This document shows, piece after piece, positions 34,743-52,212 of a DNA stretch of 64,000 nucleotides. The position numbers and the translations under genes were made by a program. Positions within the stretch are counted from its first letter, which is position 1, and each line of letters starts with the position of its first letter. The notes under the pieces are model-generated. The model had not been told where the DNA came from. It ran no database searches and was given only the letters and a program-made list of their open reading frames with translations. This stretch comes from a virus: UHGV virus genome UHGV-0113858; one strand, written 5' to 3'.

Positions 34743-34744
34743 GG

Positions 34745-36476: not shown

Positions 36477-36500
36477 CTTGTTCTCCTTTTTGTGCGGATA

Positions 36501-36540: not shown

Positions 36541-36585
36541 ACGAACGATGCTAACACTGTACGGCATACTGTCGGTGTCCCGAAT

Positions 36586-36720: not shown

Positions 36721-36729
36721 ACCTCAAGT

Positions 36730-37818: not shown

Positions 37819-37870
37819 TTGTTTTTCTCCATTGATTCAAGGGCAATGCTGTATAGAACTTGAGTCTTCT

Positions 37871-38062
37871 TCATTTGGCAAGTTCCACTTCAAGCTCTGC
37901 GATTTTAATTTTCAATTCAAGGGTGTCGCGTTTCAGTAGGGACTTTGCCAGTTCACTATCAACGGACTCGTTAATATCATTCGGGTTTGCTTCAGGATAA
38001 AACTCTGTTGCTTGTGCAGAGCAAGAAAGCGCGAGCAGGGCGGCTAGGATAATCTTTTTCAT
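37871..38062 (-). CDS. small coiled-coil lipoprotein (Lpp-like)
   Basis: Signal peptide plus lipobox LALSC; C-terminal heptad LKIKIAELEVELAK. Confidence 0.4.
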   Translation of the reverse strand: MKKIILAALLALSCSAQATEFYPEANPNDINESVDSELAKSLLKRDTLELKIKIAELEVELAK

Positions 38063-38095
38063 TTGAATCTCCTCTTGAGATTATTTAGTCAGAAT

Positions 38096-38302
38096 TTAGT
38101 AGCGAGACCACTTCACTCGACCACCGTCGCAGATCAGTTTGTTCTCAACGATAACACCATCAACCGAGTTAGCAAGGCGTTGCTCACCGTTAGGCTTGCA
38201 ATTATGGGTCACGTTATCTGCGATGTCAAGCGATATGTAGGCGACAACTGCAACAACAATCACAATAACCAACGGACGCACCCAAGGCATGAATCCACGC
38301 AT
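38096..38302 (-). CDS. small membrane protein
   Basis: 68 aa, one TM (PLVIVIVVAVVAYISL). Confidence 0.3.
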   Translation of the reverse strand: MRGFMPWVRPLVIVIVVAVVAYISLDIADNVTHNCKPNGEQRLANSVDGVIVENKLICDGGRVKWSRY

Positions 38303-38312
38303 TTATTTCTCC

Positions 38313-38558
38313 TTACCAGCCGGAAGTATCGACAATCACGCCACCCAAAAGAAGCAGGAAGAATTCAAGCATAAACATACCGAAACCTGCTCCCAAAATT
38401 TCTTTTGTTTGTTGCTCATGGTCTGCTGTAAATGAAAGCCCCAACGTTGTCAGCATGGTCAGGGCCATAAGGCCTAACACTGCATAAATAAAATGTGAAA
38501 GCTTCATAGGGCGATACTCCAGAGATGCACCGTAAAAGCAGCGTTGATGACTGCACAA
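38313..38558 (-). CDS. small 2-TM membrane protein
   Basis: 81 aa with two hydrophobic segments. Confidence 0.35.
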   Translation of the reverse strand: MCSHQRCFYGASLEYRPMKLSHFIYAVLGLMALTMLTTLGLSFTADHEQQTKEILGAGFGMFMLEFFLLLLGGVIVDTSGW

Positions 38559-38740
38559 CCTACGTACACCGTGCGGTGTGTTTCATCTTTTGAAAAGACA
38601 GCGCCGAAGGCACAAGAAACACAGGCCACTGCTGCCAGAACTAAAAAGAAATAATTGATTGCCTCTAACATACACCCTCCAGGTTATTTAGCTTCCATAA
38701 CAATAAAGCCCCTCAACCATGAAGTCAAGAGGCTTTTGAA

Positions 38741-39100
38741 TTATTTTTGCAGCTCCTTAATGTAGTCCCGCAAACCGCAAATCATATTATATTTTGCCGT
38801 TTCTTCTTCGGTGAGCGGTCTGACTTCTTCATCCACACCAACATTGTTGTGGTAGTCCCACCAGGCGTCTACATGGACAAGTACAAGAAACGGTTCATAT
38901 CCTCTTTTACGTGTTTCCCACACGGCCCGCTCACCAGTAAAATCTGCTGGTAAGCTATAGATGAAGTTCCTCAGCAGTTCTTTGGTGAGGACATCTGCGA
39001 GGTAGTCTGGTGTTTGTGCCTTGACAATATTCATGATCTCTTCATCAGAGATATCTACTTCCACATTCTGTACAATAGTTTGTTTGCCAGTTACTTTCAT
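38741..39100 (-). CDS. hypothetical protein
   Basis: 119-aa ORF. Confidence 0.4.
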   Translation of the reverse strand: MKVTGKQTIVQNVEVDISDEEIMNIVKAQTPDYLADVLTKELLRNFIYSLPADFTGERAVWETRKRGYEPFLVLVHVDAWWDYHNNVGVDEEVRPLTEEETAKYNMICGLRDYIKELQK

Positions 39101-39117
39101 TTATCCTCCAACACAAA

Positions 39118-39141
39118 AAGGCCCCGAAGGGCCTTGGCGGG
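39118..39141 (-). terminator. rho-independent terminator downstream of the 39146 gene
   Basis: - strand reads ccgccaaggcccttcggggcctttttgtgtt. Confidence 0.5.
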
Positions 39142-39145
39142 CAGA

Positions 39146-39565
39146 TTACAGAGATTCCAGCTCTTTCAGGATCTCTTCACGAGACATCGCTGCATCTTTC
39201 TCGTTATCCTTCTCTGCCAGCAGGTCCAGAAGTTTACGCTTACGCTCAACCTTCTCTTTCGCTGCCTGGCGATCCGCGATCTCCGCTTTACGCACCGAGA
39301 TGATGTACTTCAGGATATCCAGCTTCAGGTTTGCTTCGCCATTTACAGCACTGGCCTCGACAACGAAACTTTCTTCAGCAGATGCTTTCACATCACGGTT
39401 AGCCAGTTTGGAAACCGTATCCAGGCTGGTATTACCAGTCATCGGCAGATCCCACAGATCTTCTGTGGTCAGTAGACCTTTCGGGCTTGCAAAACGCAGT
39501 TTTTTACGGGTAGCCAGTTCGAACAGGGTAGCGGTATTTGCGATGGTAGTATTGATGATTGACAT
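39146..39565 (-). CDS. hypothetical protein with C-terminal coiled coil
   Basis: 139-aa ORF. Confidence 0.4.
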   Translation of the reverse strand: MSIINTTIANTATLFELATRKKLRFASPKGLLTTEDLWDLPMTGNTSLDTVSKLANRDVKASAEESFVVEASAVNGEANLKLDILKYIISVRKAEIADRQAAKEKVERKRKLLDLLAEKDNEKDAAMSREEILKELESL

Positions 39566-39581
39566 ATTTTTGTTCTCCTCT

Positions 39582-39794
39582 TTAGTTTTTCAGTAAGCTG
39601 CGTTCTTCAAGAATCTCAGCCAATTGTTGTTCAGTTGCCCGGTACGTAAAGGAGTGCAACATTTTCTTTGCAGTTATGTACGCACACCCGAACTCATTGC
39701 ATATCCTTTGGTAAGGATTTTCTGGAGGAGCGAACCCCTCCAGACATGCAACGAGTCTATCAGTTACCGGGGTTGGTTGCAACCCCGTTTTCAT
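39582..39794 (-). CDS. hypothetical small protein
   Basis: 70 aa, start overlaps the upstream gene's stop. Confidence 0.3.
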   Translation of the reverse strand: MKTGLQPTPVTDRLVACLEGFAPPENPYQRICNEFGCAYITAKKMLHSFTYRATEQQLAEILEERSLLKN

Positions 39795-41824
39795 CAGAAT
39801 TTAATCTTCAGGGTGCGGTTGAAAGAACCAGTAACCTTCACAACCAACTCGTTACGCTGGGTAGACGAGAAGCCCAGGCCGCTCAGTTGGTCAGTGGAGT
39901 GTTCAGCTTTGAGCTTGGAACCCAACACTTCGAACACTTTACGATGCTCATGCAGCTCGTCACGCAGATACTCATTGTAGAAGCCACGAGTATCGTCAGG
40001 GTTAATGCAACCTTCCAGCATAAAGAAGTAGTGTTTGTTACCTTTGGTCTGACCATCCCAGAAGTTAGGAGAATTCAGCACCAGAGAAACTTTCTGGAAG
40101 GTCTCGGTAGAGACGCCCCATACTTCTTTAGATTGCTTAGTATGCCCGATGCTGTCTACAATTTCAACACCTTTCGCACGAGAATACTTAAAGGTTACAA
40201 CGGTCTGGCTCTTGCTATTACCCAAAGCTTGCGGGTATGCAAAGTTGAACACTTGGCCTTTGTACTCCATCTGTACTTCGAAGCCAACGCGATCAGTCAT
40301 GCGCTTATTATAGTTGTTAACAACAACCTTGTAAACACCTTCCGTGATATTACGCTCATTTTCCCACGTAACGTTCTCAACCGGATGGTGTGCGTCTGAC
40401 TTGCCATAGGCATTCATATCCACATCCAGCGTACCCGTTGAGCGACCACGTTTGTTACCGAAGTAAATTTGACCGCCACCAGGCTCGAATACATGCAGGT
40501 CGAGGTCATCACTGTTGTACCAGGACAACGAAACACGCAGGTCACCAGTCACGCTACCGCCAGCGGCTTTCACACGCTCCTTGATGGAGTCAGTTACTTC
40601 GCCATTATACGACCAGGAGAAGCCGTTATCCCATTTGAACAGGTTAGGAGCACCTGCGTTTGCCGGGGCAACCAGGCTCATCAGGTTCGGTGTCAGACGA
40701 CCTTCAACCAGCGCTTCGATAGTGTCCGCTTTCGGCAGAACGTTATTGATGAAATCCTCAATGCTGATCTCTTCTACTTTCGACAGTGACTTCGGCGCGT
40801 TTTTGGTTGACGCTGCCAGTTGCTCGAATACGTTCATCTGGGCCTTTGCAGAACGGTCAGCAAACAACACGTTGTTGATCGTCAGGTCAGAGGTCACCGC
40901 AAAGCGACGTGCCAGAGATTCAGTCAAGCCGAGGGCTTCAACCTTCTCTTGTGCTGCCTTGATCATGCCCGGAGTTACCAGAGCTGTAGTACGCTTGTAG
41001 TTGGTCCCTGAGACTTTGTCTTCAAAGGACTTCACTGCGGCTTCAAGATCAATACCTTCTGCCAGATCGCTCATCAGTGTACCGATGACATCATTACGGA
41101 AGCGGCCCAGTTTACCCAGCGTTTCACTTTGTTTCCAGCAGAAGTTCATTCGCTGATCTTCCGGCGTTTTGTCGTATGCACGTTTCGCCTTAATAAAGGC
41201 AGCAACAATGTGCTTTTTCTCATCACCACGGTACAGAGAGCCTTGGTTGATCAGGTCCATTACCGTTTCGGCAGAGTCCATATCGATATCTTTCAGAGAA
41301 CGTGCCAGCACAGTTGCGTTGTCACGGTACTCACCCAGGGCAGAAGGGATATCTTCACCACGTTTAACCAGTTCGCGAGGCAGGGCCTGATGGAAGTGGG
41401 TCCAGGTTTTGGTTTTCCCATTTTCCAGCAGAGCTACGTTGCTCTCAGTACCAACGCGGCCTTCGAAGTGGAAGAAGCGATCGCGGATCTCGGCGCTTTC
41501 AACACGCGCTTTCATCGCATCGGCAACAACTTGGTAGTAACCACCAACTTTAACGTCCCAAATAGAGACCAGCTTGCCGTTGTGAATCGCGACTACTCGG
41601 CCCAGAGTACGGATGTAGCTCTTGCAGCAGTTACAGTCATATTCACGGCGCTCTTTATACATCAGATTGGTGCCTTCCGGGAAAGAGTCGAGGTACAGGT
41701 AGTACAGTTCATCTTTCGGTACATCGACCGTGTAAAGCGCACCCAGCGCTTGCATGACAGCGAACTGAGCTTTCAGAGCTTTTACGAAGTCAGCGTAAGG
41801 TACGGTTTCATATTTTGCGGTCAT
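39794..41824 (-). CDS. large early protein of unknown function (676 aa) with N-terminal YDCNCCKSY cysteine cluster
   Basis: Long ORF with a strong sigma70 promoter 60 nt upstream; no P-loop or ligase (KxDG) motif seen; C-terminal DLDLHVFEPGGGQIYFGNKRGRSTGTLDVDMNAY segment. Confidence 0.5.
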   Translation of the reverse strand: MTAKYETVPYADFVKALKAQFAVMQALGALYTVDVPKDELYYLYLDSFPEGTNLMYKERREYDCNCCKSYIRTLGRVVAIHNGKLVSIWDVKVGGYYQVVADAMKARVESAEIRDRFFHFEGRVGTESNVALLENGKTKTWTHFHQALPRELVKRGEDIPSALGEYRDNATVLARSLKDIDMDSAETVMDLINQGSLYRGDEKKHIVAAFIKAKRAYDKTPEDQRMNFCWKQSETLGKLGRFRNDVIGTLMSDLAEGIDLEAAVKSFEDKVSGTNYKRTTALVTPGMIKAAQEKVEALGLTESLARRFAVTSDLTINNVLFADRSAKAQMNVFEQLAASTKNAPKSLSKVEEISIEDFINNVLPKADTIEALVEGRLTPNLMSLVAPANAGAPNLFKWDNGFSWSYNGEVTDSIKERVKAAGGSVTGDLRVSLSWYNSDDLDLHVFEPGGGQIYFGNKRGRSTGTLDVDMNAYGKSDAHHPVENVTWENERNITEGVYKVVVNNYNKRMTDRVGFEVQMEYKGQVFNFAYPQALGNSKSQTVVTFKYSRAKGVEIVDSIGHTKQSKEVWGVSTETFQKVSLVLNSPNFWDGQTKGNKHYFFMLEGCINPDDTRGFYNEYLRDELHEHRKVFEVLGSKLKAEHSTDQLSGLGFSSTQRNELVVKVTGSFNRTLKIKF

Positions 41825-41882
41825 TTCGTTCTCCTATTTGTGAAGTTATTTTGAAGCGAGGTCTCTCGTCTTCATGTGATAC

Positions 41883-41912
41883 ACTTTAATGCTATTCGAA
41901 ACAGCTGTCAAC
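41883..41912 (-). promoter_or_regulatory. strong sigma70 early promoter TTGACA-N18-TAAAGT
   Basis: Reverse complement of 41907-41912 is TTGACA, of 41883-41888 is TAAAGT; AT-rich upstream region. Confidence 0.55.
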
Positions 41913-41919
41913 ACTATTT

Positions 41920-42147
41920 TTAAATTTCTTGCAAATATTCAATCATGGTCTCGAAGCTTTTATTCTTATAGCGTCTAGAAGCCAATGACCAGCCGGGGTA
42001 CTCATTGTCGGTATCGGTAGTGTACACCATCCACTCTCCTGCAACTTTCCTGAAAAAGCTGACATAGTACGCCCAATTGCCGCCAGGAGTAGGATGTCCT
42101 GGATACATAAAATAATGGGTTGCTTCTTTAGGTTTGTTCGGAAACAT
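41920..42147 (-). CDS. hypothetical protein
   Basis: 75-aa ORF. Confidence 0.35.
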   Translation of the reverse strand: MFPNKPKEATHYFMYPGHPTPGGNWAYYVSFFRKVAGEWMVYTTDTDNEYPGWSLASRRYKNKSFETMIEYLQEI

Positions 42148-42155
42148 GGTCTCTC

Positions 42156-42782
42156 CTATTGTGATAGCGGCTTAGTCTTGGCTGCACGTTTTCCTTTGTT
42201 ACGCTCTTTACGAGGTATGCCTGTATATGATGACCAAGACCTCCCGGTAAAGATGTTGCTGATGGTGATCTGCTTCACACCAAACATATCGGCAATTGCC
42301 TGCTGACTCATTTTACCACGAAGTCCCAGTATCCTATCAACATCCGATTCCTTAAGGACTGCGTGTTTGCAATTATCCCCAGATCTGTTCGAATAGTCTT
42401 GTGGACTATACTCATTGTTGTATGAAGGAGTACACCACTCAAGGTTGTCAACGTGATTATTAAGCGGGTTTCCATCCTTGTGGTTGACAAGAACAACTTT
42501 GTGACCACCTTTCAGGCACTCGTCTATTAATTCTTGACCCGGAGGCGCAAGAAAGGCCTCGGCTACAAGGCGGTGTACAAACGGCATCCATCCAGGGGCT
42601 AGTGTAACCTGCCGATAACCGTGACTGTCTAATTGTCCCCACAAATGTTTTTCTGGGAAAGTCTGCATCCAAGTGGTAAATTGATTCTTTGTCAGTACCT
42701 GGTACTCTTTACGCCTTACAAAGCCATAATTACTAACTTGGTACTTCCCCTCCGTAGAGGGGATGTCCTTCCATATCTCCAT
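42156..42782 (-). CDS. HNH homing endonuclease (NUMOD4 plus HNH_3 plus C-terminal HTH)
   Basis: Start MEIWKDIPSTEGKYQVSNYGFVRR (NUMOD4-like); HRLVAEAF...VNHKDGNPLNNHVDNLEW (HNH_3); SD ggag; lies just downstream of DNA polymerase exon 2. Confidence 0.6.
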   Translation of the reverse strand: MEIWKDIPSTEGKYQVSNYGFVRRKEYQVLTKNQFTTWMQTFPEKHLWGQLDSHGYRQVTLAPGWMPFVHRLVAEAFLAPPGQELIDECLKGGHKVVLVNHKDGNPLNNHVDNLEWCTPSYNNEYSPQDYSNRSGDNCKHAVLKESDVDRILGLRGKMSQQAIADMFGVKQITISNIFTGRSWSSYTGIPRKERNKGKRAAKTKPLSQ

Positions 42783-42808
42783 AAAACTCCTTATAAAACA
42801 GTATGTTA

Positions 42809-43492
42809 CTAGTGGCAATCGGCCCAGGATCGCCCAGTCAGATATGCCCCTGTGATATGTACAGGACTGCCCATGATACGAGCTGCCTTCTCTACACATC
42901 TTACGACCATTTCACCTACAGGGCAATACTGGATGTGAATTTTACCATCCTCTCCAAAAATACCCTCGTAGACTGTATTGCCTTCCGCATCCTTGACTTT
43001 ATCACCATTTTCATCTTTGACGGCCTTTCTCCACTCATGCCCGTCAAATACGCGGCCTTTTGCTTCCCATTCTTTTACGAAAGCTGTTGCCTCTTCCAGG
43101 GTGTCAAACTCCCACTTCTTCAAGTATTTCTTAGGAACCTGGAGCTGGTATTCATCATGGTAGTAAATCAGGCGACGAACGTCATCATCATACCAGCCAC
43201 GTTTGATCAGTTCCCAGTGAAGCAGGATACCAACCAGATCGAATAGAGATGCACCACCGTTTTGCTGGAAAGCATTCAGAAGAGAGTGCTTAGAACGGGT
43301 CCAAATCTTACGACCATCGAGACCAGGGATATAACGTTTACCCGTTGCTTCCCAGAAGTTTTCAAGCCATTCCTTACGACCTTTCAAACCAAAGTTACTA
43401 TCCCAGAAAGCATCGATTACCGCCTGTGCCTTGTCAAGGGAAATGTGAAGCATTGCTGCAATCTTAGCTGCCTGAGCACCATACATGATCCT
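42809..43492 (-). CDS. DNA polymerase (family A, T7-type), exon 2: motif B/C and C-terminus
   Basis: IMYGAQAAKIA continues polymerase motif B (T7: FLYGAGDEKIG); ends ...SWADCH like T7 gp5 ...WAICH. Confidence 0.65.
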   Translation of the reverse strand, partial: RIMYGAQAAKIAAMLHISLDKAQAVIDAFWDSNFGLKGRKEWLENFWEATGKRYIPGLDGRKIWTRSKHSLLNAFQQNGGASLFDLVGILLHWELIKRGWYDDDVRRLIYYHDEYQLQVPKKYLKKWEFDTLEEATAFVKEWEAKGRVFDGHEWRKAVKDENGDKVKDAEGNTVYEGIFGEDGKIHIQYCPVGEMVVRCVEKAARIMGSPVHITGAYLTGRSWADCH

Positions 43493-43620
43493 AATGTTCG
43501 ACATGGGACGCTACCACCATGCCCGTTCTCTTATGAACTGCTGCATGTTTCCATGCAGAGCAGACTATATCTTCACCCACTTGGGGTGTCCACCGCTTCG
43601 GGCCGCTTGGCCCTACTCCG

Positions 43621-44022
43621 TTACCGGATAGTCGTTGGGATTTTACCTCTTGCCAAATACCACTCTTCACCACTACAGTAAAGATTGTTGCAAACAGCAT
43701 GTTCTACATTAGATGCACGGCATGATAATTCTATATTTTCCCAGCAATTATTCAATGTGTTTGCATCTAGGTGGTTGACCTCTTCCTCTTCAAGAAGGTC
43801 TCTACCGACCTTTGCCGCACAAATCAACCTGTGCAACAAATAGTGTTTGCCATTTTTCAAACAGATACGCTGATAAAATTTCTTTCCCTTACCTTTGTGT
43901 AGATAGGGCTTCAACTTTCTTAGTTTTCCACGATTGCTGGAGTATATATTACCTTCGTGGTCACAAAAGTATCCGTTTGATATTGGTATTTTAGCCAAGG
44001 TACTTATCTGCTGATTGTCCAT
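43621..44022 (-). CDS. intron-encoded HNH homing endonuclease
   Basis: 133 aa; HNH_3-type motif (LHRLICAAKVG...VNHLDANTLNNCWENIE); own SD aggagg and an internal TTGACA-N16-TATGAT promoter at 44044-44071. Confidence 0.6.
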   Translation of the reverse strand: MDNQQISTLAKIPISNGYFCDHEGNIYSSNRGKLRKLKPYLHKGKGKKFYQRICLKNGKHYLLHRLICAAKVGRDLLEEEEVNHLDANTLNNCWENIELSCRASNVEHAVCNNLYCSGEEWYLARGKIPTTIR

Positions 44023-44043
44023 TTCATCCTCCTAAAAGGAGAA

Positions 44044-44071
44044 ATCATACATAAATTTTTCAAACTGTCAA
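44044..44071 (-). promoter_or_regulatory. sigma70 promoter inside the intron driving the HNH ORF
   Basis: Reverse complement of 44066-44071 is TTGACA, of 44044-44049 is TATGAT; 16-nt spacer; 22 nt upstream of the ATG. Confidence 0.45.
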
Positions 44072-44173
44072 GCCCATCCTCGCGGATCACTTTGTAGTAT
44101 TTATGTCTTTAGGATTTCCCAGCAATTCAATGGATGCACCTTATAAATTACTTCATAAGGGGGCTATCAATTA

Positions 44174-46210
44174 ACCGTAGGTTACCCCTTTACCACCGTT
44201 ACGCGTTACCAGAGTACCAGAAGCTTTGGTGTATGCCTCGGCGTTTCGTGCGTGGGCATCTCCACTTTCCATGATACGGAGGTATTCACCACCATCGAAC
44301 TGATATGCACCCCATGCCGCGATCATACCTTCGAGGTTAGAACCATCGATACCGACCTGGTAATATTCATCGGTAACACCCCAGAGGCCACGCATCTCTT
44401 TACCCAATAACACCTTAGGGTCTGGTTTAGGCATGTTTGCACAGATGGTGTGCTTACAGCGCCCGGTATTGGTGATGCCGGAGAAACGAGCTGGAAGTTT
44501 TCCATCAATCGCCAAACGAGGGTGATTCAACAGCCCTGTGTCGTTTTTGTCCTCGTCAATCGGGTCGAGAACAGAGCGACGGTTACGTAATGACAGCCAC
44601 TTAACAATCTGTTTAGCCAAGTGAACATCAATAACTTCAAGGTTAGGACACAGCTTGCCAAAGTTATCCTTCAACTGTGGTGAAGTCGGCAGTTGACGAG
44701 CTTTGCGTCGGAACTTCTTGAAGATCTCCTCGTAAACACGATCAGAACCATGACGATGGTCGAACTTGTTTTCCGAGATATTGAACTTTGCGTCACTATT
44801 ATTTAAGTGCTCAAGAATCAGAGATTTATACTCGGACTCTCCAAGTTCTTCGATGTACTTACGCACCAGACCATCAACCTCCGCATCATCGCGGGTCTTT
44901 TTGAACTGGTCTTTCGTCACATCTTTAACACGCCAGAGCGTTGGTTTCCATCCCGCATCGCGGATCAGGTACTTCTTGATGTCGTCCTGGTTCGAGATCT
45001 TCATCGGAACCATCAGGTCTGGCATCTTTCCAGCACGAAGATCGGCAATTGCCTTTTCCATTAGGTCTGGTGGCAATGGGACAAGGGTATTCTCTTTCTT
45101 TATCTGGCTTCTAATGAAGTCTGGCATCGCTGCCGGGTCTTCAACACCATTCTGGATACAGTATCTTTCCCCTGCTGCACTTACATCACCGTTACCTTTA
45201 AACGCCGTCTTCGGTGGACCTTTGAATTCCAGTGCTTCACGATTAACTGGATATCCCAGCTTGTATTCTAACCAATTCCACCCGTGATGGGAAATTCTTC
45301 CTGCACCATCAAAAGGATTAGCAGGGAATTTTGGCTGTTGAGACTTCGTCATCTCTTTGAGCGGGAGTTGAGGTTCTACTTCTTCCTCAATCTCTTTCAT
45401 CATTACATCAATACGGTCTCTCAGCTTTTCAGCTTCATGCTTATTGAATGGAACACCCTGAATTTCTTGCTCAATCATCAGGTAATCAGTCAACATACGG
45501 CGGCGTAGCGCGTTCTTCCAGTTGATCTGCCGCATCCCTTCCGGTTTATCTTTGTACATGAACTGCTTGTCATCAGGCCAGCGAGCACCTGTAGATTCAT
45601 CGATCAGGGATTGCCATACTAACTCGTTGATTAAAACGTCTTCCCAGACACGATTAACGTATTCCCACAAGGGTTGGTTACGCCAGTCATCGATCTGAAC
45701 TTTCTTGTTTGCTACACGGTAGCCCCAGGCCAACAGGCCATGAGGACCTACACGATCTCGCTTCCCGGTTACCGGGTTAAGAACAGAGTCAGGGCAACCG
45801 TTAGGTAATGGACGGTCAGGATAAAGCACACGGCTCATAGAGAGGGTGTCGTAGAGATTTACCTGTGTATCCCCAATCGTCCCCATGCACTTCGGGTCTT
45901 TGAACATATCATATTCAATGCCCGATAACTTCTTCCATAGACGCAGGTCATAGCCAAAAAGGTTGTGAATCGCAATGCCGCGAGGCTCCGTTTGCAACCA
46001 AGTGTACAGCTCGTCATAAGAAAGAATCCTAAGGTTAGCCTCTGTCTTGCTACGAGCGTAAGCTACTGCGCTTTCATATTCCGGGTGGTTTGGGTCAAGG
46101 AAGAGGACCCAATTGTTAACACCAAACTCTTTCAGTAGTGTGCAGTGGTACTTTGTAACTTCATCAAGCAGCCCATCTGCTTCATTATCCCCTATAAAAA
46201 GACCTCTCAT
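44174..46210 (-). CDS. DNA polymerase (family A, T7-type), exon 1: N-terminal exonuclease-like region, motif A, first half of motif B
   Basis: 679-aa ORF ending ...RNGGKGVTYG at the splice site; completed by exon 2. Confidence 0.6.
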
Positions 46211-46716
46211 TCATCCCTCGCAAAAGTGTTATGGTACTTGGCTCTTTCTCTTTTAGCTACATCTGCCGCTTCTTCAAGACTGTCAAAATATCCGCAGTGG
46301 ATTTGTTTTCTGTTAACACAGATCTGCACCTGCCATTTACCAGCATGTTCTTTCCAGTAGACACACTTATGGCCGGAGGTGTTAGTGACCCTTTTCCTAC
46401 TATTATGCATGTTTTGGTTTGTTGTTGCGGGTCTCAGGTTTTCTACGTGGTTATTTTGAGGATTGCAGTCTTCGTGATCCACAACATCAGGAAGCCATCC
46501 ATGATGGTACAAGAAAATCACCCTGTGAGCGAGAAATCTTCCTAACGGGGTGCTTATCTCAATGTACCCTGTGTTCATCACGCTTCCAGCTTCCTTACCG
46601 CCATACTTGGTATTGAAGGTTTTGTTGAACCTGTTTGTTGCGGGCCTTAATCTGTGGTAAAGTTTACCATCTCTGTATTCAAACAACTTCCTAACGTACT
46701 CTTGCGAGAGTGTCAT
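46207..46716 (-). CDS. HNH-AP2 homing endonuclease
   Basis: HRVIFLYHHGWLPDVVDHEDCNPQNNHVENL (HNH) plus AP2-like GHKCVYWKEHAGKWQVQICVNRKQIHCGYFDSLEEAA; hairpin (46733-46760) just upstream. Confidence 0.6.
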   Translation of the reverse strand: MTLSQEYVRKLFEYRDGKLYHRLRPATNRFNKTFNTKYGGKEAGSVMNTGYIEISTPLGRFLAHRVIFLYHHGWLPDVVDHEDCNPQNNHVENLRPATTNQNMHNSRKRVTNTSGHKCVYWKEHAGKWQVQICVNRKQIHCGYFDSLEEAADVAKRERAKYHNTFARDE

Positions 46717-46772
46717 TGTTCCTCCTATTCAAGGTGGGCTAGACTGTACCGTCGCCCACCTCTCAGTTGGTA

Positions 46773-48833
46773 TTAAATTACATAAATTGCATGTTTTGCG
46801 TATTGCAATCCTATCGGGGCGAAAGGCGTATCATCGTCAGGACCAAGAGTAGGAACGGGGGTCCTGTCAAGATCGATGGTTGGCTTATACTCAGGTGCCG
46901 GAACATTTACCTTTCCAACCGGAGTTTCCAGAGAGAGTTGATGGATCAGGCTCTGAGGACGAAGCATAACTTCACCATTAAGCTTGAACATCCCATCTTC
47001 CCATTCCCAGCCGGAAGCATCGGAGAACTGCCCGTTGTCATCCATAACCATTGTATCAGCGATACCCAGTTTTTTGTGTGGGCGGTTCTTCAGCACCACG
47101 ATACGTACACGTCCACGGGAGCGGTCAGGAAGCTCTTCTGGTTCAACACCCAGAACCACCCATGAGAGTTGTTCAAGGGCCGCAGAACCGCGCAGGTCTT
47201 CTTTACGGACCGGATACCAGAACGGTAATAGATTCCCATCTTTATCTTTCGGAAGCTGAAGTTCTTTACGCTTCATGTGACTGATTGATAAGATGAAAAC
47301 ATCGTACTTCTTACAGAAAGCTGCCAGCTCGGTCATGATGTTATCAAGGTCTCGACGTTCGTTGTCGGACTTAAGACCAGAGATTACCATTGACAGGTGA
47401 TCGAGGATGATCCATTTACAACCATCAAGGAACACCATCTGCTTAAGTTTCTGAATAAGCTGGTCTGTCGGGATAGAACCGAAGTGATCAAAGATCTTAA
47501 TCTTATCTTCCCGAATCCAGCGTTGGTGAATCTCAAGGTGTTGCTCTTCGGTTAAGAACTGCTCCGGGTCAGCAACAAATGCCTTAGGGTCCACCTTCAG
47601 CTCTTCAGCATACAAGCTGTTTACAGACTCTTCTTCATCCTCTTCCAGACGGATGATGGCTACTTTCTCACTCTCGGTCCAGCCATCTAGGCGGGGAATT
47701 GACATATCACGAAGATAATCAATGATCGCGTATTCAATCTTACGAGAGATTGTAGACTTACCACCACCAGACGGTCCTGTCAATGTCCAAAGCTCACCAG
47801 TACGGGGACCACGGGTCAGGTTATATAGGCCGGGAAGCCCTGGTAATGGAACACCATCTTTTTTCTTCTTGCGAAGATTCTCAATGGTAATATCCTTAAG
47901 ACCGATAAGCTTATCAGGGACATAGCGATCGTCTGCTTTGGTAAACATTGCATAAAGCTCGCGTACCTTACCTGCATCATACATGTCACGAATGTCTTTA
48001 AAGCCATCCGGGTCATTACGCTCGTTAGGATATCGCACAACGTAAATGTTTTCTGACAGCAGGAAGCTAGCGACATCGTCGGTTGCTTCTTTACCTTTCT
48101 TTATTTTCTTTTCTTTTTCTAATGCTGTGGCTTCGTCGTTATCAAAGCCCAAGACTACCTTCTCATAACTGCGAATGAACTTCTCGTTGTTTGCGAAAGT
48201 ATCAACAGCGTTTGCAGTACCACAGTTTAATCCAACATAGGGTAGTGTCGGAAGACCTCCAATGTCCTCGTCGTTCTGAATATGACGGATACCTTTTAAG
48301 ATGCTATCCGCCCAGTCTTTAACGCCTTTACTGGCCTTTGGACTGGTGGACATAGCCTTAACCATCTCATACGCTGCCTGCCATGCGGCGCATACGTCAC
48401 CTTCACCTTCCACGATATTGATCTGCTTACGACCAACACCCATAGAGGCTTCATGCTGCCCGAAGAACTGAGATGATGCCTTCACAGCACCAACAGTTGA
48501 AAAGTGTCCTGTCTTTTCCTTCTGTAACGTCCAATCACGTTTCTTGAATCCCGTTAGTTTCCCATACTTATCATAATAGGGCAAGTATGTTGCTACCGGG
48601 GTGATACCATCCGCCGGGGATACCGCAGAACGGATCTTAAAATACTGTGCTGCTTCAAGAGAGAGACTCATTTCGGGAACAGCCATGATGCGGGTGCCAG
48701 ACAGCACTGATTCCAGGGTCTCTTCTGCTCGATTGTTACTATAACTCAACTTGCCTCCGCGATTACTTCCAAAACCTGCTCTTGGGTTTTCATTGCCACC
48801 TTTCCTATAGGCAGAAAAGTCAAAATTACTCAT
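46773..48833 (-). CDS. primase-helicase (TOPRIM primase plus DnaB-family helicase)
   Basis: 686 aa; central EGEGDVCAAWQ / GLNCGTANAV TOPRIM-like; Walker A TLTGPSGGGKSTISRK; Walker B ILDHL. Confidence 0.6.
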   Translation of the reverse strand: MSNFDFSAYRKGGNENPRAGFGSNRGGKLSYSNNRAEETLESVLSGTRIMAVPEMSLSLEAAQYFKIRSAVSPADGITPVATYLPYYDKYGKLTGFKKRDWTLQKEKTGHFSTVGAVKASSQFFGQHEASMGVGRKQINIVEGEGDVCAAWQAAYEMVKAMSTSPKASKGVKDWADSILKGIRHIQNDEDIGGLPTLPYVGLNCGTANAVDTFANNEKFIRSYEKVVLGFDNDEATALEKEKKIKKGKEATDDVASFLLSENIYVVRYPNERNDPDGFKDIRDMYDAGKVRELYAMFTKADDRYVPDKLIGLKDITIENLRKKKKDGVPLPGLPGLYNLTRGPRTGELWTLTGPSGGGKSTISRKIEYAIIDYLRDMSIPRLDGWTESEKVAIIRLEEDEEESVNSLYAEELKVDPKAFVADPEQFLTEEQHLEIHQRWIREDKIKIFDHFGSIPTDQLIQKLKQMVFLDGCKWIILDHLSMVISGLKSDNERRDLDNIMTELAAFCKKYDVFILSISHMKRKELQLPKDKDGNLLPFWYPVRKEDLRGSAALEQLSWVVLGVEPEELPDRSRGRVRIVVLKNRPHKKLGIADTMVMDDNGQFSDASGWEWEDGMFKLNGEVMLRPQSLIHQLSLETPVGKVNVPAPEYKPTIDLDRTPVPTLGPDDDTPFAPIGLQYAKHAIYVI

Positions 48834-49381
48834 ATTCCTCCATAGCTGTCGTTACAATACTGTTTTTCCCAATCTTCCCTTTGCTTGACAGCATCGTCGA
48901 AATCTTTGAAATTTTTCATCAGCACCTTCCCATCAACAGTGATTCGTGCTCTCCACGGTTTTGTCGGATACCCTCTGTCCAATGAAACCCCTCTCCGAGA
49001 AGAATACTTGTTGGAAATATTGGCAGTCTTGCCACCACCCTTACGAGTATTCGTTCCTCTCCTTAGTAATTGGAGATTTTCAATCCTATCGTCGGCGACT
49101 CCGCTGGTCTCCCTTACAGACTTAATGTGATCAACCTGAAGGCCATTGGGGACTGGACCGTGATGGAGCATCCAGACAATGACGTGGCGATAGCATCTGT
49201 GCCCCTGATAGCGAATTGTATAATAACCTTTCCCGGATTTGCTCCCAGCTTCATTACCAGCAATAGCCGCAGGATGATTATAATTCCTTCCAGAAAAGGT
49301 ATTCACTTTCCAAAACAGCTTTCCGTCACGATACTCTAAGATTTCTCCCCAATCCGGTCCATTTCCCATTATCCCTCTCAT
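48830..49381 (-). CDS. HNH-AP2 homing endonuclease
   Basis: HRCYRHVIVWMLHHGPVPNGLQVDHIKSVRETSGVADDRIENLQLL plus AP2-like GVSLDRGYPTKPWRARITVDGKVLMKNFKDFDDA; 4-nt overlaps with both neighbours. Confidence 0.6.
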   Translation of the reverse strand: MRGIMGNGPDWGEILEYRDGKLFWKVNTFSGRNYNHPAAIAGNEAGSKSGKGYYTIRYQGHRCYRHVIVWMLHHGPVPNGLQVDHIKSVRETSGVADDRIENLQLLRRGTNTRKGGGKTANISNKYSSRRGVSLDRGYPTKPWRARITVDGKVLMKNFKDFDDAVKQREDWEKQYCNDSYGGI

Positions 49382-50112
49382 TTATTTTTCTGGTAAAACG
49401 CCTCCGCAAAACCGCGAGGTGTACAACTACGAATATTTTTAGTCTTGGTGGATTTGCCACCACACTTCTTCCAGCCTGGATTGTCCTTGTACAATTCCTT
49501 CACAGGAAGCTTGTCAGGCTGTTTTGCGCCATTGCCCATCCAAATGCACGTCTTCTTGTTATACGCGTCCTGAGGAGGGTATACGTGCGGATATAGTGGG
49601 TGTATATCAGTGGTTGGGAGATACCCGCCGTAATCCTTAGGATCAAACATGTAATCAGGTTTTCGATACATTGAAGAGAGAACACCGACAGGGTTTTCAA
49701 AGGCCCACGGAACATTATATAAATCTCCAACCTTCTCTACCAATAGGCAAAGTTCCATTGCTTCTTTCTGGAAGTTAGGGTTTGCTGCTCTTTTCTTAGC
49801 CCAATGACGTGAACCTGCATTGGTCAGGTGAGTACATTCCGGGAAACCAAAGACGATGTGAACATTGTCACCAACCATTTCTTTGATCTCTTGAGCTTGT
49901 TGAACGGTCTTGTCGTGGAAGAACCACATCCCGACTTTAACAAGGTCACCCTCGCGGGTGACTCCTGGTGAATGTTGACCATCAAAAGTCCAAACTTCAT
50001 AGCCAGCCTCTAACCAAGGACGAGCCATGACCGAAGTGTAATCATAAAGAATGATCACTTTCTTCTTCAAACGGCCTCCGTTAGTGGAAACTGACTCCTT
50101 GGTGATCGACAT
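49378..50112 (-). CDS. C5-methyltransferase-like protein with deviant motifs (FPEC / FENPVG)
   Basis: GFPECTHLTNAGS (compare PCQ motif IV) and AFENPVGVL (compare ENV motif VI); no recognisable AdoMet motif I (FxGxG). Confidence 0.35.
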   Translation of the reverse strand: MSITKESVSTNGGRLKKKVIILYDYTSVMARPWLEAGYEVWTFDGQHSPGVTREGDLVKVGMWFFHDKTVQQAQEIKEMVGDNVHIVFGFPECTHLTNAGSRHWAKKRAANPNFQKEAMELCLLVEKVGDLYNVPWAFENPVGVLSSMYRKPDYMFDPKDYGGYLPTTDIHPLYPHVYPPQDAYNKKTCIWMGNGAKQPDKLPVKELYKDNPGWKKCGGKSTKTKNIRSCTPRGFAEAFYQKNK

Positions 50113-52203: not shown

Positions 52204-52212
52204 TATTTTCTC

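What the first reader, a model, noticed from the sequence alone, without database searches (positions are those of the whole stretch)
43493..44173. Group I intron with promoter-equipped HNH endonuclease splits the T7-type DNA polymerase within motif B
Polymerase exon 1 ends ...RNGGKGVTYG and exon 2 begins IMYGAQAAKIA; joined, these recreate motif B (T7 RDNAKTFIYGFLYGAGDEKIG). The intervening 681 nt on the - strand contain the canonical group I R-like element CAACGACUAU and the S element GAAGAUAUAGUCUG, a 5' splice site after U, and a 3' terminal G. The HNH ORF sits in a peripheral loop with its own SD and a TTGACA-N16-TATGAT promoter.
Basis: partly seen in the sequence, partly recalled or inferred. 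Interest (0 to 1): 0.75.

Follow-up and report, generated by a model that had tools for sequence, protein, structure and literature searches.

The report
Mobile self-splicing intron in phage polymerase
The DNA polymerase gene of this Klebsiella-type phage is interrupted by a well-formed self-splicing group I intron that carries its own homing-endonuclease gene; this is a known kind of selfish element, and relatives at the same site are already shown to splice, so it is a good but ordinary example.

Summary
Window 44173..43490 (- strand) is a 684-nt subgroup IA2 group I intron. Rfam Intron_gpI scores 66.2 bits (E 1.4e-14). Intron-less relatives (Mydo, KB57, Seu621, AV124) define the junction exactly, at ...TACGG(C/U)|AUCAUG. 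The joined exons align without a gap to T7 DNA polymerase, which places the intron between the equivalents of T7 G527 and F528 in motif B. A P1-P10 model is supported by covariation in 9 related introns (92.5% paired; 35 of 72 pairs compensatory). The 133-aa HNH ORF (44022..43621) is intact. Its body loops out of P6a, but its ends overlap P5/P4/P6 and P7/P7.1. The TTGACA-N16-TATGAT promoter lies in L5 and is conserved in Pectobacterium, Pseudomonas and Aeromonas phage introns; function is untested. The intron is a mosaic: a K54-type ribozyme shell (100% identical) holds a cassette that differs at one base from Salmonella phage SSE121, whose exons are only 79-86% identical. Introns at this site were shown to splice in phage CB7 (PMC7344957). 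Verdict: a new member of a known kind, of modest interest.

The parts
44174..46210 (-). DNA polymerase exon 1 (679 codons; ends ...GVTYG, last nt U)
   Evidence: ORF list. tblastn with the Mydo polymerase covers aa 1-679 at 99.7% identity.
43490..44173 (-). Group I (IA2) intron, 684 nt
   Evidence: Rfam RF00028, 66.2 bits. Boundaries come from alignment to intron-less Mydo and to KB57, Seu621 and AV124. GC is 41.5% against 47.4% in the exons.
42809..43489 (-). DNA polymerase exon 2 (226 codons plus stop; begins IMYGAQ)
   Evidence: tblastn with Mydo aa 680-905 at 99.6% identity. Continuous alignment to T7 DNA polymerase across the junction.
44171..44173 (-). In-frame UAA, the first three intron nucleotides; it stops exon-1 ribosomes at the splice site
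   Evidence: Sequence. Described as a general feature of bacterial group I introns in PMC3073962.
44162..44169 (-). Internal guide sequence UGAU|AGCC. AGCC plus U8 pair with exon-1 GGU and intron UA (P1, with U.G at the splice site). UGAU pairs with exon-2 AUCA (P10).
   Evidence: Hand model checked on alignment A2. The P1 helix is 100% paired with 3 compensatory pairs, and U.G is present in 8/8 sequences with letters at that pair.
44139..44160 (-). P2, 9 bp with a GUAA tetraloop
   Evidence: Minimum-free-energy fold. Five of nine pairs change on both sides.
44128..44134 (-). P3 5' strand (UCCAUUG), pairing with 43589..43595 (CGGUGGA)
   Evidence: Fold. 93.7% paired, 4 compensatory pairs.
44119..44124 (-). 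P4 5' strand (UGCUGG), pairing with 44009..44014 (UCAGCA, inside the ORF)
   Evidence: Fold. 100% paired, 4 compensatory pairs.
44021..44111 (-). L5 insertion between P5 strands 44112..44114 and 44018..44020. It contains the AUCC-GCGA-GGAU hairpin (44076..44087), the promoter and the SD.
   Evidence: Alignment with K54-type introns, which lack this insertion. The hairpin covaries with SPA01's GCCG-GUAA-CGGC.
44044..44071 (-). Sigma70-type promoter-like site: TTGACA (44071..44066), 16-nt spacer, TATGAT (44049..44044). Predicted +1 is near 44037.
   Evidence: Scan gives 11/12. The same site occurs in phiTE site 2 (11/12), SPA01 (12/12) and Aeromonas 2L372D (12/12, 17-nt spacer). Function has not been tested.
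44028..44042 (-). Anti-SD UCUCCU (44042..44037), UUU loop and SD AGGAGG (44033..44028): a hairpin that would hide the ribosome-binding site in the polymerase pre-mRNA
   Evidence: Fold of -8.0 kcal/mol, z = -2.0. An RNA starting at the predicted +1 is unstructured, -0.6 kcal/mol. The hairpin is kept in phiTE site 2 and SPA01 but not in Aeromonas.
43621..44022 (-). HNH homing-endonuclease ORF, 133 aa (MDNQQ...TTIR*)
   Evidence: Pfam HNH_3 at 5.1e-9. PHROG 959 at 2.5e-27. 99.2% identical to the SSE121 protein and 54% to the phiTE/CB7 site-2 protein. Catalytic residues conserved.
43984..44008 (-). P6/P6a 5' strand (inside the ORF), pairing with 43639..43663
   Evidence: RNAduplex gives -18.7 kcal/mol. 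An equivalent closing stem with a different sequence is present in all 10 related introns.
43628..43637 (-). R element CAACGACUAU (J6/7 plus the P7 5' strand), read by the ORF as ..TTI..
   Evidence: Sequence. P7 is 94.4% paired.
43600..43627 (-). P7.1 (CCG-GUAA-CGG, containing the ORF stop codon), GUA linker and P7.2 (GGGCC-AAGC-GGCCC): the IA2 signature
   Evidence: Fold and pair counts. The IA2 criterion is as stated in PMC3428280.
43561..43588 (-). P8 (CACCC-CAAGU-GGGUG), then the S element GAAGAUAUAGUCUG (J8/7 plus the P7 3' strand)
   Evidence: P8 is 100% paired with 4 of 5 pairs compensatory.
43500..43558 (-). P9 (GAAA tetraloop), P9a and P9.2 hairpins
   Evidence: Fold. Paired in 93.7%, 97.0% and 81.7% of cells respectively, with compensatory changes.
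43490..43490 (-). Terminal guanosine (omega-G) of the intron
   Evidence: Alignment to the intron-less allele. All related introns end in G.

Best explanation
Window 44173..43490 (- strand) is a mobile subgroup IA2 group I intron in the family-A (T7-type) DNA polymerase gene of a Mydovirus-like (Vequintavirinae) Klebsiella phage.

Splicing. The polymerase gene is transcribed through the intron. Ribosomes translating exon 1 stop at the UAA that forms the first three intron nucleotides. The RNA folds into P1-P10. A free guanosine attacks after the U of ...UACGGU, which forms a U.G pair with the guide sequence. The exons are then ligated after the terminal G (43490). This restores ...GVTYG-IMYGAQ..., the O-helix of motif B, and yields one 905-aa polymerase.

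Mobility. The intron also carries a 133-aa HNH endonuclease gene. By analogy with I-HmuI-type enzymes, the protein nicks polymerase alleles near the insertion site, so that recombinational repair copies the intron, or only its internal cassette, into co-infecting relatives.

Endonuclease expression (inferred). The ORF is probably expressed from its own sigma70-type promoter in loop L5. RNA started there lacks the 5' half of the ribozyme and also lacks the anti-SD, so it can be translated. In the full polymerase pre-mRNA the SD is sequestered in a hairpin, which would keep ribosomes out of the P4-P7 core that the ORF overlaps.

Origin. This particular intron is a recombinant: a ribozyme shell of the local Klebsiella-phage type with an expression-and-endonuclease cassette recently acquired from an SSE121-like intron. 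Both crossovers lie inside conserved ribozyme core segments.

Shown in silico: the intron's identity, boundaries and structure; the intact HNH gene; the mosaic ancestry; conservation of the promoter. Inferred: splicing in this phage, promoter activity, translational gating, and the nicking site.
For: Intron identity and boundaries:
- Rfam RF00028, 66.2 bits, E 1.4e-14.
- Exact boundaries from the intron-less Mydo allele and three more intron-less alleles.
- The spliced ORF is 905 aa with no internal stop and is 99.6-99.7% identical to the Mydo polymerase.
- It aligns without a gap to T7 DNA polymerase across the junction, E 3e-17.

Structure:
- An unconstrained fold of the ORF-less intron recovers P1, P2, P3, P4, P5, P7.1, P7.2, P8 and P9.
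- Covariation on 9 introns: 92.5% of cells paired against 35-44% in slid controls; 35 of 72 pairs changed on both sides against 4-9; 0 of 500 shuffles reached the observed values.
- A P6/P6a closing stem is present in all 10 introns examined.

Mobility:
- Exon position -1 is U in all five intron-bearing alleles and C in all four intron-less alleles.
- All four occupancy states of polymerase sites 1 and 2 exist among relatives.
- Window versus SSE121: exons are 79-86% identical, yet intron nt 22-572 differ at one base. Window versus K54_rec2: intron nt 1-61 and 537-684 are 100% identical and the middle is unrelated.

Endonuclease: Pfam HNH_3 and PHROG 959 match, catalytic residues are conserved, and full-length homologues of 127-130 aa exist in Vibrio and Aeromonas phages.

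Promoter: 11-12 of 12 consensus positions in four lineages, 21-33 nt upstream of the AUG, with chance about 0.0016 per locus. Related phages lack their own RNA polymerase and use sigma70-like early promoters (PMC7344957).

SD hairpin: -8 kcal/mol in the pre-mRNA context, unstructured from the predicted +1.

Experimental precedent: both polymerase introns of Pectobacterium phage CB7 splice in vivo, shown by RT-PCR and Sanger sequencing (PMC7344957). Its sibling phiTE carries them at the same two sites.
Against: - No RNA data exist for this phage, so splicing is inferred from structure, from essentiality of the gene and from orthologues.
- The K54-type shell with the SSE121-type cassette is a combination not found in any of the 50,697 phage records or in IMG/VR. 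Its folding has therefore never been tested, although SSE121 carries the same cassette in a shell that is about 95% identical.
- The promoter spacer is 16 nt. The predicted +1 is a U. The site differs from the TGTTGAC-N19-TATAAT early-promoter class described for CB7.
- Other strong sigma70-like matches in the window are mostly intragenic, so such matches are not reliable here.
- The SD hairpin is only modestly stable (z = -2.0). It is not distinguishable from shuffled sequence in phiTE site 2 (z = -1.2) and is absent from the Aeromonas homologue.
- The endonuclease is short and lacks the C-terminal helix-turn-helix region of the longer relatives. It has no detectable sequence match to a solved structure. 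Its specificity and activity are unknown.
Confidence: 0.88

Rival explanations
1. The intron splices, but its extras are not functional as proposed. The TTGACA...TATGAT match would be conserved because that part of L5 is an RNA structural element, or by descent alone. The endonuclease would be translated, if at all, from the polymerase pre-mRNA or the excised intron. The anti-SD hairpin would be incidental.
For: - The window, phiTE site-2 and SPA01 L5 modules are 76-92% identical, so hexamer conservation among them is only weakly significant on its own.
- The count of sigma70-like sites in the region equals the shuffle expectation: 14 found against 14.2 expected.
- Other 11/12 sites in the window are intragenic or antisense.
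- The hairpin z-scores are modest, and the hairpin is missing in Aeromonas 2L372D.
- The ribozyme core itself gives a 10/12 match (TGGACA-17-TATAGT), which shows such matches can arise for RNA reasons.
Against: - Aeromonas 2L372D has an L5 that cannot otherwise be aligned, yet it carries a perfect TTGACA-17-TATAAT at the equivalent place.
- The one hexamer change in SPA01 moves towards consensus.
- Chance of an 11/12 or better site is about 0.0016 per locus.
- K54-type introns, which lack the L5 insert, have no such site.
- Independent promoters for intron ORFs are established in T4 (Gott et al. 1988, cited as a reference in PMC3073962).
Confidence: 0.25
2. The insert is a non-splicing invasion. 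The polymerase would be made as two polypeptides (679 aa and about 226-231 aa) that assemble after translation, as described for the Aeh1 NrdA/mobE split gene.
For: - Database records annotate the pieces as separate 'DNA polymerase' CDSs.
- An ATG at 43504 gives an ORF, MSNIRIMYGAQ..., that covers exon 2.
- One HNH-associated insert in CB7 (nicotinamide phosphoribosyl transferase gene) did not splice (PMC7344957).
Against: - The group I core is complete and supported by covariation, with correct P1, P10 and terminal G.
- Exon position -1 is U only in intron-bearing alleles, which makes sense only if the 5' splice-site U.G pair is used.
- The break falls in the middle of the O-helix, between the equivalents of T7 Y526 and Y530.
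- Read by eye, there is no SD upstream of the ATG at 43504.
- The polymerase introns of CB7 do splice.
Confidence: 0.04
3. The ribozyme is intact but the endonuclease is a decaying passenger (the late stage of the homing cycle), and the intron now persists only by vertical inheritance.
For: - The protein is short (133 aa) and lacks the C-terminal DNA-binding extension of the longer relatives.
- Its C-terminal eight residues are dictated by ribozyme sequence.
- No solved homologue is detectable by sequence.
Against: - The cassette differs at one base in about 550 nt from that of a phage whose exons are only about 80% identical, which implies very recent horizontal spread.
- The family keeps its full length and catalytic residues at 45-54% identity across Pectobacterium, Vibrio and Aeromonas phages.
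- The PHROG 959 profile is itself only 138 aa long.
Confidence: 0.1

Closest known systems
DNA polymerase introns of Pectobacterium phages CB7 and phiTE (Certrevirus, Vequintavirinae)
   Same: The first intron sits at the identical codon junction (GVTYG|IMYG). Its ribozyme ends are 79-86% identical to the window's. Both are group I introns carrying an HNH gene. Their second intron (YYH|DE) carries the window-type L5 promoter module (92% identical over intron nt 44-166) and an endonuclease 54-55% identical to the window's. Both CB7 polymerase introns were shown to splice by RT-PCR and sequencing (PMC7344957).
   Different: At site 1 they carry an unrelated 149-aa HNH gene that starts after P4' in the P6 loop, with a short P5 hairpin. 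The window has the other cassette at site 1, and its site 2 is empty. The published paper did not describe ribozyme structure, subgroup or the promoter.
Site-1 polymerase intron of Salmonella phages SSE121, GEC_vB_MG and GE_vB_MG (Seunavirus)
   Same: The whole intron is 96.8-97.8% identical, the site is the same, and the endonuclease is 99.2% identical. It scores 63.8 bits with Rfam.
   Different: The shell differs in P2, P8 and P9.2, including compensatory changes. The exons are only 79-86% identical. The records annotate separate CDSs with no intron feature.
PhiI/W31 intron of T7-like coliphages (Bonocora and Shub 2004; endonuclease I-TslI), as described in PMC3428280
   Same: It is a self-splicing IA2 intron in a family-A polymerase gene of a phage of enterobacteria, with an HNH ORF in P6a. 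The window's relatives carry an intron at motif C (YYH|DE). I equate that position with PhiI/W31's site 881 using E. coli Pol I numbering (H881 of HDE) from my own knowledge; no tool tested this.
   Different: PMC3428280 places it at E. coli Pol I position 881, not in motif B. The primary paper could not be read.
Gene 5 intron of Yersinia phage Berlin and other Berlinvirus-type T7-like phages
   Same: It lies in motif B of a T7-type polymerase. The 3' half of its ribozyme is about 80% identical to the window's, with the same P7.1, GUA linker and P7.2. It is annotated as a joined CDS.
   Different: It is inserted 10 nt upstream (RDNAKTF|IYG, inside the Phe codon). The guide sequence differs and there is no P2. 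Its ORF is different and is annotated as endonuclease VII in sibling records.
SPO1, SP82, Bastille and Pf-WMP3 polymerase introns (I-HmuI, I-HmuII, I-BasI, I-PfoP3I)
   Same: They are group I introns with nicking HNH endonucleases in family-A polymerase genes. I-HmuI and I-HmuII cut intron-containing alleles as well, which is a plausible route to the intron-into-intron cassette replacement seen here (PMC3428280).
   Different: They sit at site 674 (E. coli numbering) in different phage lineages. The SPO1 ORF lies in P8 (PMC3073962, Table 1).
Phage T4 td intron with I-TevI
   Same: It is subgroup IA2 (stated from my own knowledge). The ORF lies in the P6 loop, with its 3' end forming P6a/P7. 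[quoted passage not shown] The intron ORF is expressed independently of its host gene (PMC3073962).
   Different: The endonuclease is a GIY-YIG enzyme and the host gene is thymidylate synthase. It uses T4-specific promoters, not a sigma70 consensus (stated from my own knowledge). Its ORF start does not lie in P5/P4.

Membership tests
Group I intron (Rfam RF00028) | Covariance-model score at or above the curated gathering threshold | tested here: met
   66.2 bits against a threshold of 50, E 1.4e-14, full model 1-253.
Group I intron (Rfam RF00028) | Conserved core helices P3-P9, including the P3/P7 pseudoknot, maintained by compensatory change | tested here: met
   72 pairs in 14 helices; 92.5% paired; 35 pairs changed on both sides; slid controls 35-44% paired; 0 of 500 shuffles reached the observed values. 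P6/P6a found by RNAduplex in all 10 introns.
Group I intron (Rfam RF00028) | 5' splice site after a U that forms a U.G pair with the internal guide sequence (P1), P10 pairing with the 3' exon, and a terminal G | tested here: met
   GGU|UA pairs with UAGCC. U.G is present in 8/8 sequences with letters at that pair. UGAU pairs with exon-2 AUCA. G at 43490. Position -1 is U in all intron-bearing alleles and C in all intron-less alleles.
Group I intron (Rfam RF00028) | Excision restores an uninterrupted, conserved reading frame | tested here: met
   The joined exons give 905 aa, 99.6-99.7% identical to the Mydo polymerase, and align without a gap to T7 DNA polymerase.
Group I intron (Rfam RF00028) | Guanosine-dependent self-splicing activity | not testable with these tools
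   Indirect evidence only: the polymerase introns of CB7 splice in vivo (PMC7344957), and its sibling phiTE has them at the same two sites.
Subgroup IA2 | Extra helices P7.1 and P7.2 between P7 and P3', joined by G-U-A | tested here: met
   CCG-GUAA-CGG, A-GUA, GGGCC-AAGC-GGCCC at 43627..43600. The criterion is as stated in PMC3428280.
HNH homing endonuclease (Pfam PF13392 HNH_3; PHROG 959) | HNH domain above the curated cut-off, with conserved His and Asn residues | tested here: met
   36.1 bits against a cut-off of 24.8. PHROG 959 at 2.5e-27. H64, H84, N92 and N96 are invariant in 6 homologues.
HNH homing endonuclease (Pfam PF13392 HNH_3; PHROG 959) | Site-specific nicking or cleavage of the intron-less allele near the insertion site | not testable with these tools
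Mobile (homing) intron | Presence/absence polymorphism at one site among close relatives, and intron identity exceeding exon identity between distant hosts | tested here: met
   Four intron-less and five intron-bearing alleles. The cassette is about 99.8% identical to SSE121's while the exons are 79-86% identical.
Sigma70-dependent promoter | -35 and -10 hexamers with a 16-18 nt spacer, conserved in homologues | tested here: met
   11/12 in the window and in phiTE site 2; 12/12 in SPA01 and in Aeromonas 2L372D.
Sigma70-dependent promoter | A mapped transcription start and dependence on the hexamers | not testable with these tools
   Needs 5' end mapping or reporter assays.
T4 td/I-TevI-type gating of intron ORF translation | A hairpin that sequesters the ribosome-binding site in read-through RNA and is absent from promoter-proximal RNA | tested here: inconclusive
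   Hairpins of -8.0 kcal/mol (z = -2.0) in the window and -7.2 (z = -2.8) in SPA01. The anti-SD lies at -5..-2 of the predicted start. The phiTE site-2 hairpin has z = -1.2, and there is no hairpin in Aeromonas.
Intein | An in-frame insertion without stop codons, bearing intein splicing motifs | tested here: not met
   An in-frame UAA lies immediately after exon 1, and the insert is a ribozyme.

The most novel reading that the evidence does not exclude
The unit that moves may be an internal 'expression cassette' and not the whole intron. The cassette comprises an L5 insert with a sigma70 promoter and an anti-SD gate, an AUG embedded in the P5 3' strand (so the protein always starts M-D/G-N-Q-Q, encoded by P5'-J5/4-P4'), the HNH body, and the P6/P6a closing strands.

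This cassette would hop between group I introns already resident at different sites, genes and phage families. Examples are polymerase motif B in the window and SSE121, polymerase motif C in phiTE/CB7 and Aeromonas 2L372D, and a tail gene in Pseudomonas SPA01. Transfer would occur by recombination within the universally conserved ribozyme core (J3/4-P4 on one side, J6/7-P7 on the other), with no need for exon homology. The ribozyme core would then act as a portable landing pad for endonuclease genes. That would explain why two unrelated HNH genes alternate at the same polymerase site.
Probability: 0.5. Interest if true: 0.45.

Novelty: new member of a known kind. Interest (0 to 1): 0.3.

Why it matters
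Practical value. These polymerase genes are routinely deposited as two or three separate 'DNA polymerase' CDSs plus 'HNH endonuclease'. The exact splice junctions given here allow correct annotation of a 905-aa enzyme in this group of Klebsiella, Salmonella and Pectobacterium phages, several of which are being studied for therapy or biocontrol.

Biological value. The locus is a clean natural example of intron and endonuclease dynamics. All four occupancy states of two polymerase sites exist among close relatives. Two unrelated endonuclease genes alternate in one ribozyme shell. A near-identical cassette is shared between phages whose exons are about 20% diverged.

The conserved sigma70 promoter in L5, combined with an ORF whose ends are built from catalytic-core strands, makes this a convenient system for testing how intron-encoded genes are expressed without disrupting splicing.

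None of this changes current understanding of group I introns.

Tried and rejected
- **Rfam's own alignment.** It places the large insertion after a spurious GUGACCA near intron nt 200 and draws a P1 with several non-canonical pairs. I replaced it with a hand model, which folding, covariation and duplex analysis then confirmed.
- **Minimum-free-energy folding.** It cannot show P7 and P3 together because they form a pseudoknot, so P7 was tested only by pair counts.
- **Intein reading.** Rejected because of the in-frame stop and the ribozyme.
- **Other introns in the window.** A permissive Rfam scan (E<=0.1) found none.
- **Whole-window enrichment of strong sigma70-like sites.** Six found against 1.2 expected. 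I judged this uninformative because most sites are intragenic or antisense, and the tool's dinucleotide shuffles show no enrichment at 9/12 or better.
- **IMG/VR scan.** An exact 41-nt pattern spanning the P3-to-L5 junction found nothing.
- **phmmer of the endonuclease against PDB sequences.** Found nothing. I did not run structure prediction because it would not change the verdict.
- **Literature gaps.** The primary PhiI/W31 paper (PMC529087) is not held, and the CB7 supplementary promoter table is not held. I therefore could not check whether the CB7 authors' promoter list includes the intron promoter.
- **Alignment A2.** MAFFT shifts P7.1/P7.2 of the site-2 introns by 1-2 columns, so the paired percentages for those helices are underestimates.
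Full report
**1. What is in the sequence**

On the - strand, a 679-codon ORF (46210..44171) ends ...RNGGKGVTYG followed by TAA. A 133-aa ORF follows at 44022..43621. A reading frame beginning IMYGAQAAKIA... then runs to 42809. Rfam's Intron_gpI model matches 44182..43541 (-) at 66.2 bits (gathering score 50, E 1.4e-14). It is the only Rfam match in the 64-kb window, even at E<=0.1. Pfam assigns the second fragment to DNA_pol_A, weakly and below its cut-off. It assigns the small ORF to HNH_3 at 36.1 bits against a cut-off of 24.8.

**2. Source and exact boundaries**

The region is 96-99% identical to Mydovirus-type Vequintavirinae phages of Klebsiella and Proteus (K54_rec1-6, Mydo, KNP2, KB57). 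No database record contains the whole region. Proteus phage Mydo has one uninterrupted 905-aa polymerase gene.

Aligned to the window, Mydo reads ...ACCTACGGC|ATCATGTAT..., where the window reads ...ACCTACGGT[684 nt]ATCATGTAT.... The insert is therefore 44173..43490, which is 684 nt.

KB57, Seu621 and AV124 are also empty at this site, and all read GGC. All five occupied alleles (window, K54_rec2, SSE121, phiTE, Av-05) read GGT. The synonymous U is the base needed for the U.G wobble at a group I 5' splice site.

**3. Position in the enzyme**

The joined exons encode 905 aa with no internal stop. They are 99.6-99.7% identical to the Mydo polymerase. They align continuously to T7 DNA polymerase structures (1skr, 2ajq; E about 3e-17): TRNGGKGVTYGIMYGAQAAKIA against TRDNAKTFIYGFLYGAGDEKIG.

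Counting along the 704-residue chain puts the junction between the equivalents of T7 G527 and F528. That is inside the O-helix (motif B, RxxxKxxxFxxxYG), between the Y526 and Y530 equivalents. The residue roles are established knowledge of family-A polymerases, not something tested here.

**4. Secondary structure**

In intron numbering, window coordinate = 44174 - i.

- **P1:** exon GGU plus intron U1A2 pair with U8-A9-G10-C11-C12, with U(-1).G10 at the splice site.
- **P10:** U5-G6-A7-U8 pair with exon-2 AUCA.
- **P2:** nt 14-35, 9 bp, GUAA loop.
- **P3:** 40-46 with 579-585.
- **P4:** 50-55 with 160-165.
- **P5:** 60-62 with 154-156.
- **P6/P6a:** 166-190 with 511-535.
- **P7:** 541-546 with 606-611.
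- **P7.1:** 547-556, GUAA loop. A GUA linker follows.
- **P7.2:** 561-574.
- **P8:** 586-600.
- **P9:** 616-633, GAAA loop.
- **P9a and P9.2:** 636-649 and 651-674.
- **Terminal G:** 684.

P7.1 and P7.2 joined by G-U-A mark subgroup IA2; the criterion is quoted in PMC3428280. An unconstrained fold of the intron with the L5 insert and ORF interior removed recovers P1, P2, P3, P4, P5, P7.1, P7.2, P8, P9, P9a and P9.2.

On an alignment of nine related introns from two polymerase sites, Yersinia phage Berlin and Pseudomonas phage SPA01:
- 92.5% of cells form standard pairs, against 35-44% when partners are slid by 1-3 columns.
- 35 of 72 pairs change on both sides, against 4-9 in the slid controls.
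- No shuffle out of 500 reaches the observed values.
- The splice-site pair is U.G in 8 of 8 sequences with letters at that pair.

The structure was derived from the window sequence and several sequences are close relatives, which favours the model. The compensatory counts are nevertheless far above both controls.

The stem that closes the ORF loop (P6/P6a) forms in all ten introns tested with different sequences, at -7 to -24 kcal/mol and -18.7 in the window.

**5. The ORF and its signals**

The ORF's AUG (nt 152) lies in the 3' strand of P5. Codons 1-5 (MDNQQ) are P5'-J5/4-P4'. The next codons form P6 and the P6a 5' strand. The middle of the ORF loops out of P6a. The last codons form the P6a/P6 3' strand, J6/7 and the P7 5' strand, with the stop in the GUAA loop of P7.1. 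'In a peripheral loop' therefore holds only for the body of the ORF.

Overlap of this kind ('core creep') and an in-frame stop at the start of the intron (here UAA, nt 1-3) are documented habits of phage group I introns (PMC3073962).

The protein matches PHROG 959, a family of short HNH endonucleases with a profile 138 aa long, at E 2.5e-27. Full-length homologues at 44-55% identity occur in Pectobacterium, Vibrio and Aeromonas phages. H64, H84, N92 and N96 are invariant.

**6. The promoter claim**

TTGACA (nt 103-108), a 16-nt spacer and TATGAT (nt 125-130) lie in a roughly 90-nt insertion in loop L5. SD AGGAGG sits at nt 141-146, 5 nt before the AUG.

| Intron | -35 | Spacer | -10 | Score |
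|---|---|---|---|---|
| Window (and SSE121) | TTGACA | 16 | TATGAT | 11/12 |
| phiTE site 2 | TTGACA | 16 | TATGAT | 11/12 |
| Pseudomonas SPA01 | TTGACA | 16 | TATAAT | 12/12 |
| Aeromonas 2L372D | TTGACA | 17 | TATAAT | 12/12 |

The SPA01 module is 76% identical to the window's. The Aeromonas L5 cannot otherwise be aligned. Introns at the same polymerase site that lack the L5 insert have no such site. The chance of a match of 11/12 or better in 90 nt of this composition is about 0.0016. Related phages encode no RNA polymerase and use sigma70-like early promoters (PMC7344957). I therefore consider the promoter probably real, at about 0.6-0.7, though unmapped.

The anti-SD UCUCCU (nt 132-137) sits between the -10 hexamer and the predicted start (nt 137). 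Read-through RNA can hide the SD in a hairpin of -8.0 kcal/mol (z = -2.0). RNA started at the promoter cannot form it (-0.6 kcal/mol). The arrangement recurs in SPA01 (z = -2.8) and weakly in phiTE site 2, but not in Aeromonas.

[quoted passage not shown] I rate this gating at about 0.45.

**7. Evolution: two sites, two cassettes, and a mosaic**

Relatives carry introns at two polymerase sites:
- **Site 1:** YG|IM, in motif B.
- **Site 2:** YYH|DE, in motif C. I equate this with the position (881 in E. coli numbering) that PMC3428280 gives for the PhiI/W31 introns of T7-like phages. The equation rests on E. coli Pol I numbering of the HDE motif from my own knowledge.

All four occupancy states exist. 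Mydo, KB57 and Seu621 have neither intron. The window has site 1 only. AV124 has site 2 only. K54_rec2, SSE121, phiTE and Av-05 have both.

At site 1 there are two layouts. K54_rec2, phiTE and Av-05 have a short P5 hairpin and an unrelated 149-161-aa HNH gene that starts after P4'. The window and SSE121 have the L5-promoter cassette. Both ORF types end in ...TTIR* because they read through the shared P7/P7.1 sequence.

The window's intron is 100% identical to K54_rec2's over nt 1-61 and 537-684 and unrelated to it in between. It differs from SSE121's at one base over nt 22-572. Yet window and SSE121 exons are only 79-86% identical, with differences as close as -4 and +9. Both crossovers therefore lie inside the ribozyme core, at nt 22-61 and 537-572, not in the exons.

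The L5 module (nt 44-166) is also 92% identical to phiTE's site-2 intron, although the two endonucleases are only 54% identical.

The most economical reading is that a K54-type resident intron had its internal cassette replaced from an SSE121-like intron. HNH intron endonucleases of SPO1 and SP82 cut intron-containing alleles too (PMC3428280), which is a plausible mechanism. This step is inference.

**8. What is already known**

RT-PCR with Sanger sequencing showed that both polymerase introns of Pectobacterium phage CB7 splice in vivo (PMC7344957). Its sibling phiTE has them at the same two sites as here. I assign CB7_52 to site 1 and CB7_50 to site 2 from gene order and coordinates, not from the CB7 sequence itself.

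Yersinia phage Berlin annotates its gene 5 as a join. Its intron has a 3' half about 80% identical to the window's and sits 10 nt upstream within the same motif B. PMC3428280 lists known family-A polymerase intron sites as 674, 676 and 881. The motif B sites are therefore under-described in the literature I could search, but they are present in public records.

I found no paper describing the ribozyme structure, the L5 promoter or the cassette mosaic for this phage group. The library is incomplete, so this is weak evidence of absence.

**9. Verdict**

This is a new member of a well-known kind: a mobile IA2 group I intron with an HNH homing endonuclease in a phage family-A polymerase gene.

The modestly new points are:
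- the conserved sigma70 promoter in L5;
- an ORF whose first five codons are ribozyme core strands;
- clear evidence that the endonuclease cassette, not the whole intron, was exchanged through recombination in the core.

Interest is 0.3.

Noticed in passing
window 46207..46716 (-) and 42156..about 42780 (-): Two free-standing HNH endonuclease genes bracket the polymerase gene. An HNH_3+AP2 ORF overlaps the polymerase start codon by 4 nt. A NUMOD4+HNH_3 ORF follows just after the polymerase stop; its listed start at 42899 is probably too far upstream, since the NUMOD4 domain begins at residue 41.
   Followed up: partly
window about 43156/43157 (-), codons YYH|DE of polymerase exon 2: The second polymerase intron site (motif C) is empty in the window. 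It is occupied in the closest relatives K54_rec1-6 and in SSE121, phiTE, Av-05 and AV124. I equate it with the PhiI/W31 site from E. coli numbering I recalled, not from a tool result. All four occupancy combinations of the two sites exist.
   Followed up: yes
window 43564..43592 (-): The ribozyme core itself (P3 3' strand, P8 and the S element) gives a 10/12 sigma70-like match, TGGACA-17-TATAGT. This is probably a coincidence of the conserved GAUAUAGUC with a -10 hexamer, and it warns against reading promoter scans at face value.
   Followed up: no
L001 5425..5790 and L003 4267..4632 (polymerase exon 3 of K54_rec2 and SSE121): Next to their site-2 intron, the exon-3 protein sequence is only 86-90% identical to Mydo. 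The window, which lacks that intron, is 99.6% identical. This looks like exon co-conversion accompanying acquisition of intron 2.
   Followed up: no
L006 1473..2352 (Pseudomonas phage SPA01, Pakpunavirus): A homologous IA2 intron without P2 interrupts a gene that a sibling record annotates as the tail tape measure protein. It has the same L5 promoter module and a 197-aa HNH ORF that also starts MDNQQ. It scores 42 bits with Rfam, below the gathering score.
   Followed up: partly
L009 about 1367..2100 (Aeromonas phage 2L372D) and L008 (Vibrio phage JA-1): The Aeromonas polymerase gene carries a site-2-type intron with a perfect TTGACA-17-TATAAT in L5 and a homologue of the window's endonuclease, yet Rfam finds nothing there at E<=0.1. 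Vibrio phage JA-1 has two adjacent intron/endonuclease units. Its copy starts MGNPL, and its P4 appears by eye to covary (ACGGG/UCCGU).
   Followed up: partly
Relatives' database records (L001, L003, L004, L007): The split polymerase is annotated as two or three independent 'DNA polymerase' or 'hypothetical protein' CDSs, with no intron or join features. Some exon-2 CDSs start at an ATG inside the intron's 3' end; the window has an equivalent ORF at 42809..43504, MSNIRIMYG....
   Followed up: yes
window 1..30022 (+) versus 30068..64000 (-): Long ORFs switch strand near 30 kb. The left half is + strand and the right half, which includes primase/helicase and the polymerase, is - strand, so there appear to be two converging transcription modules.
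   Followed up: no
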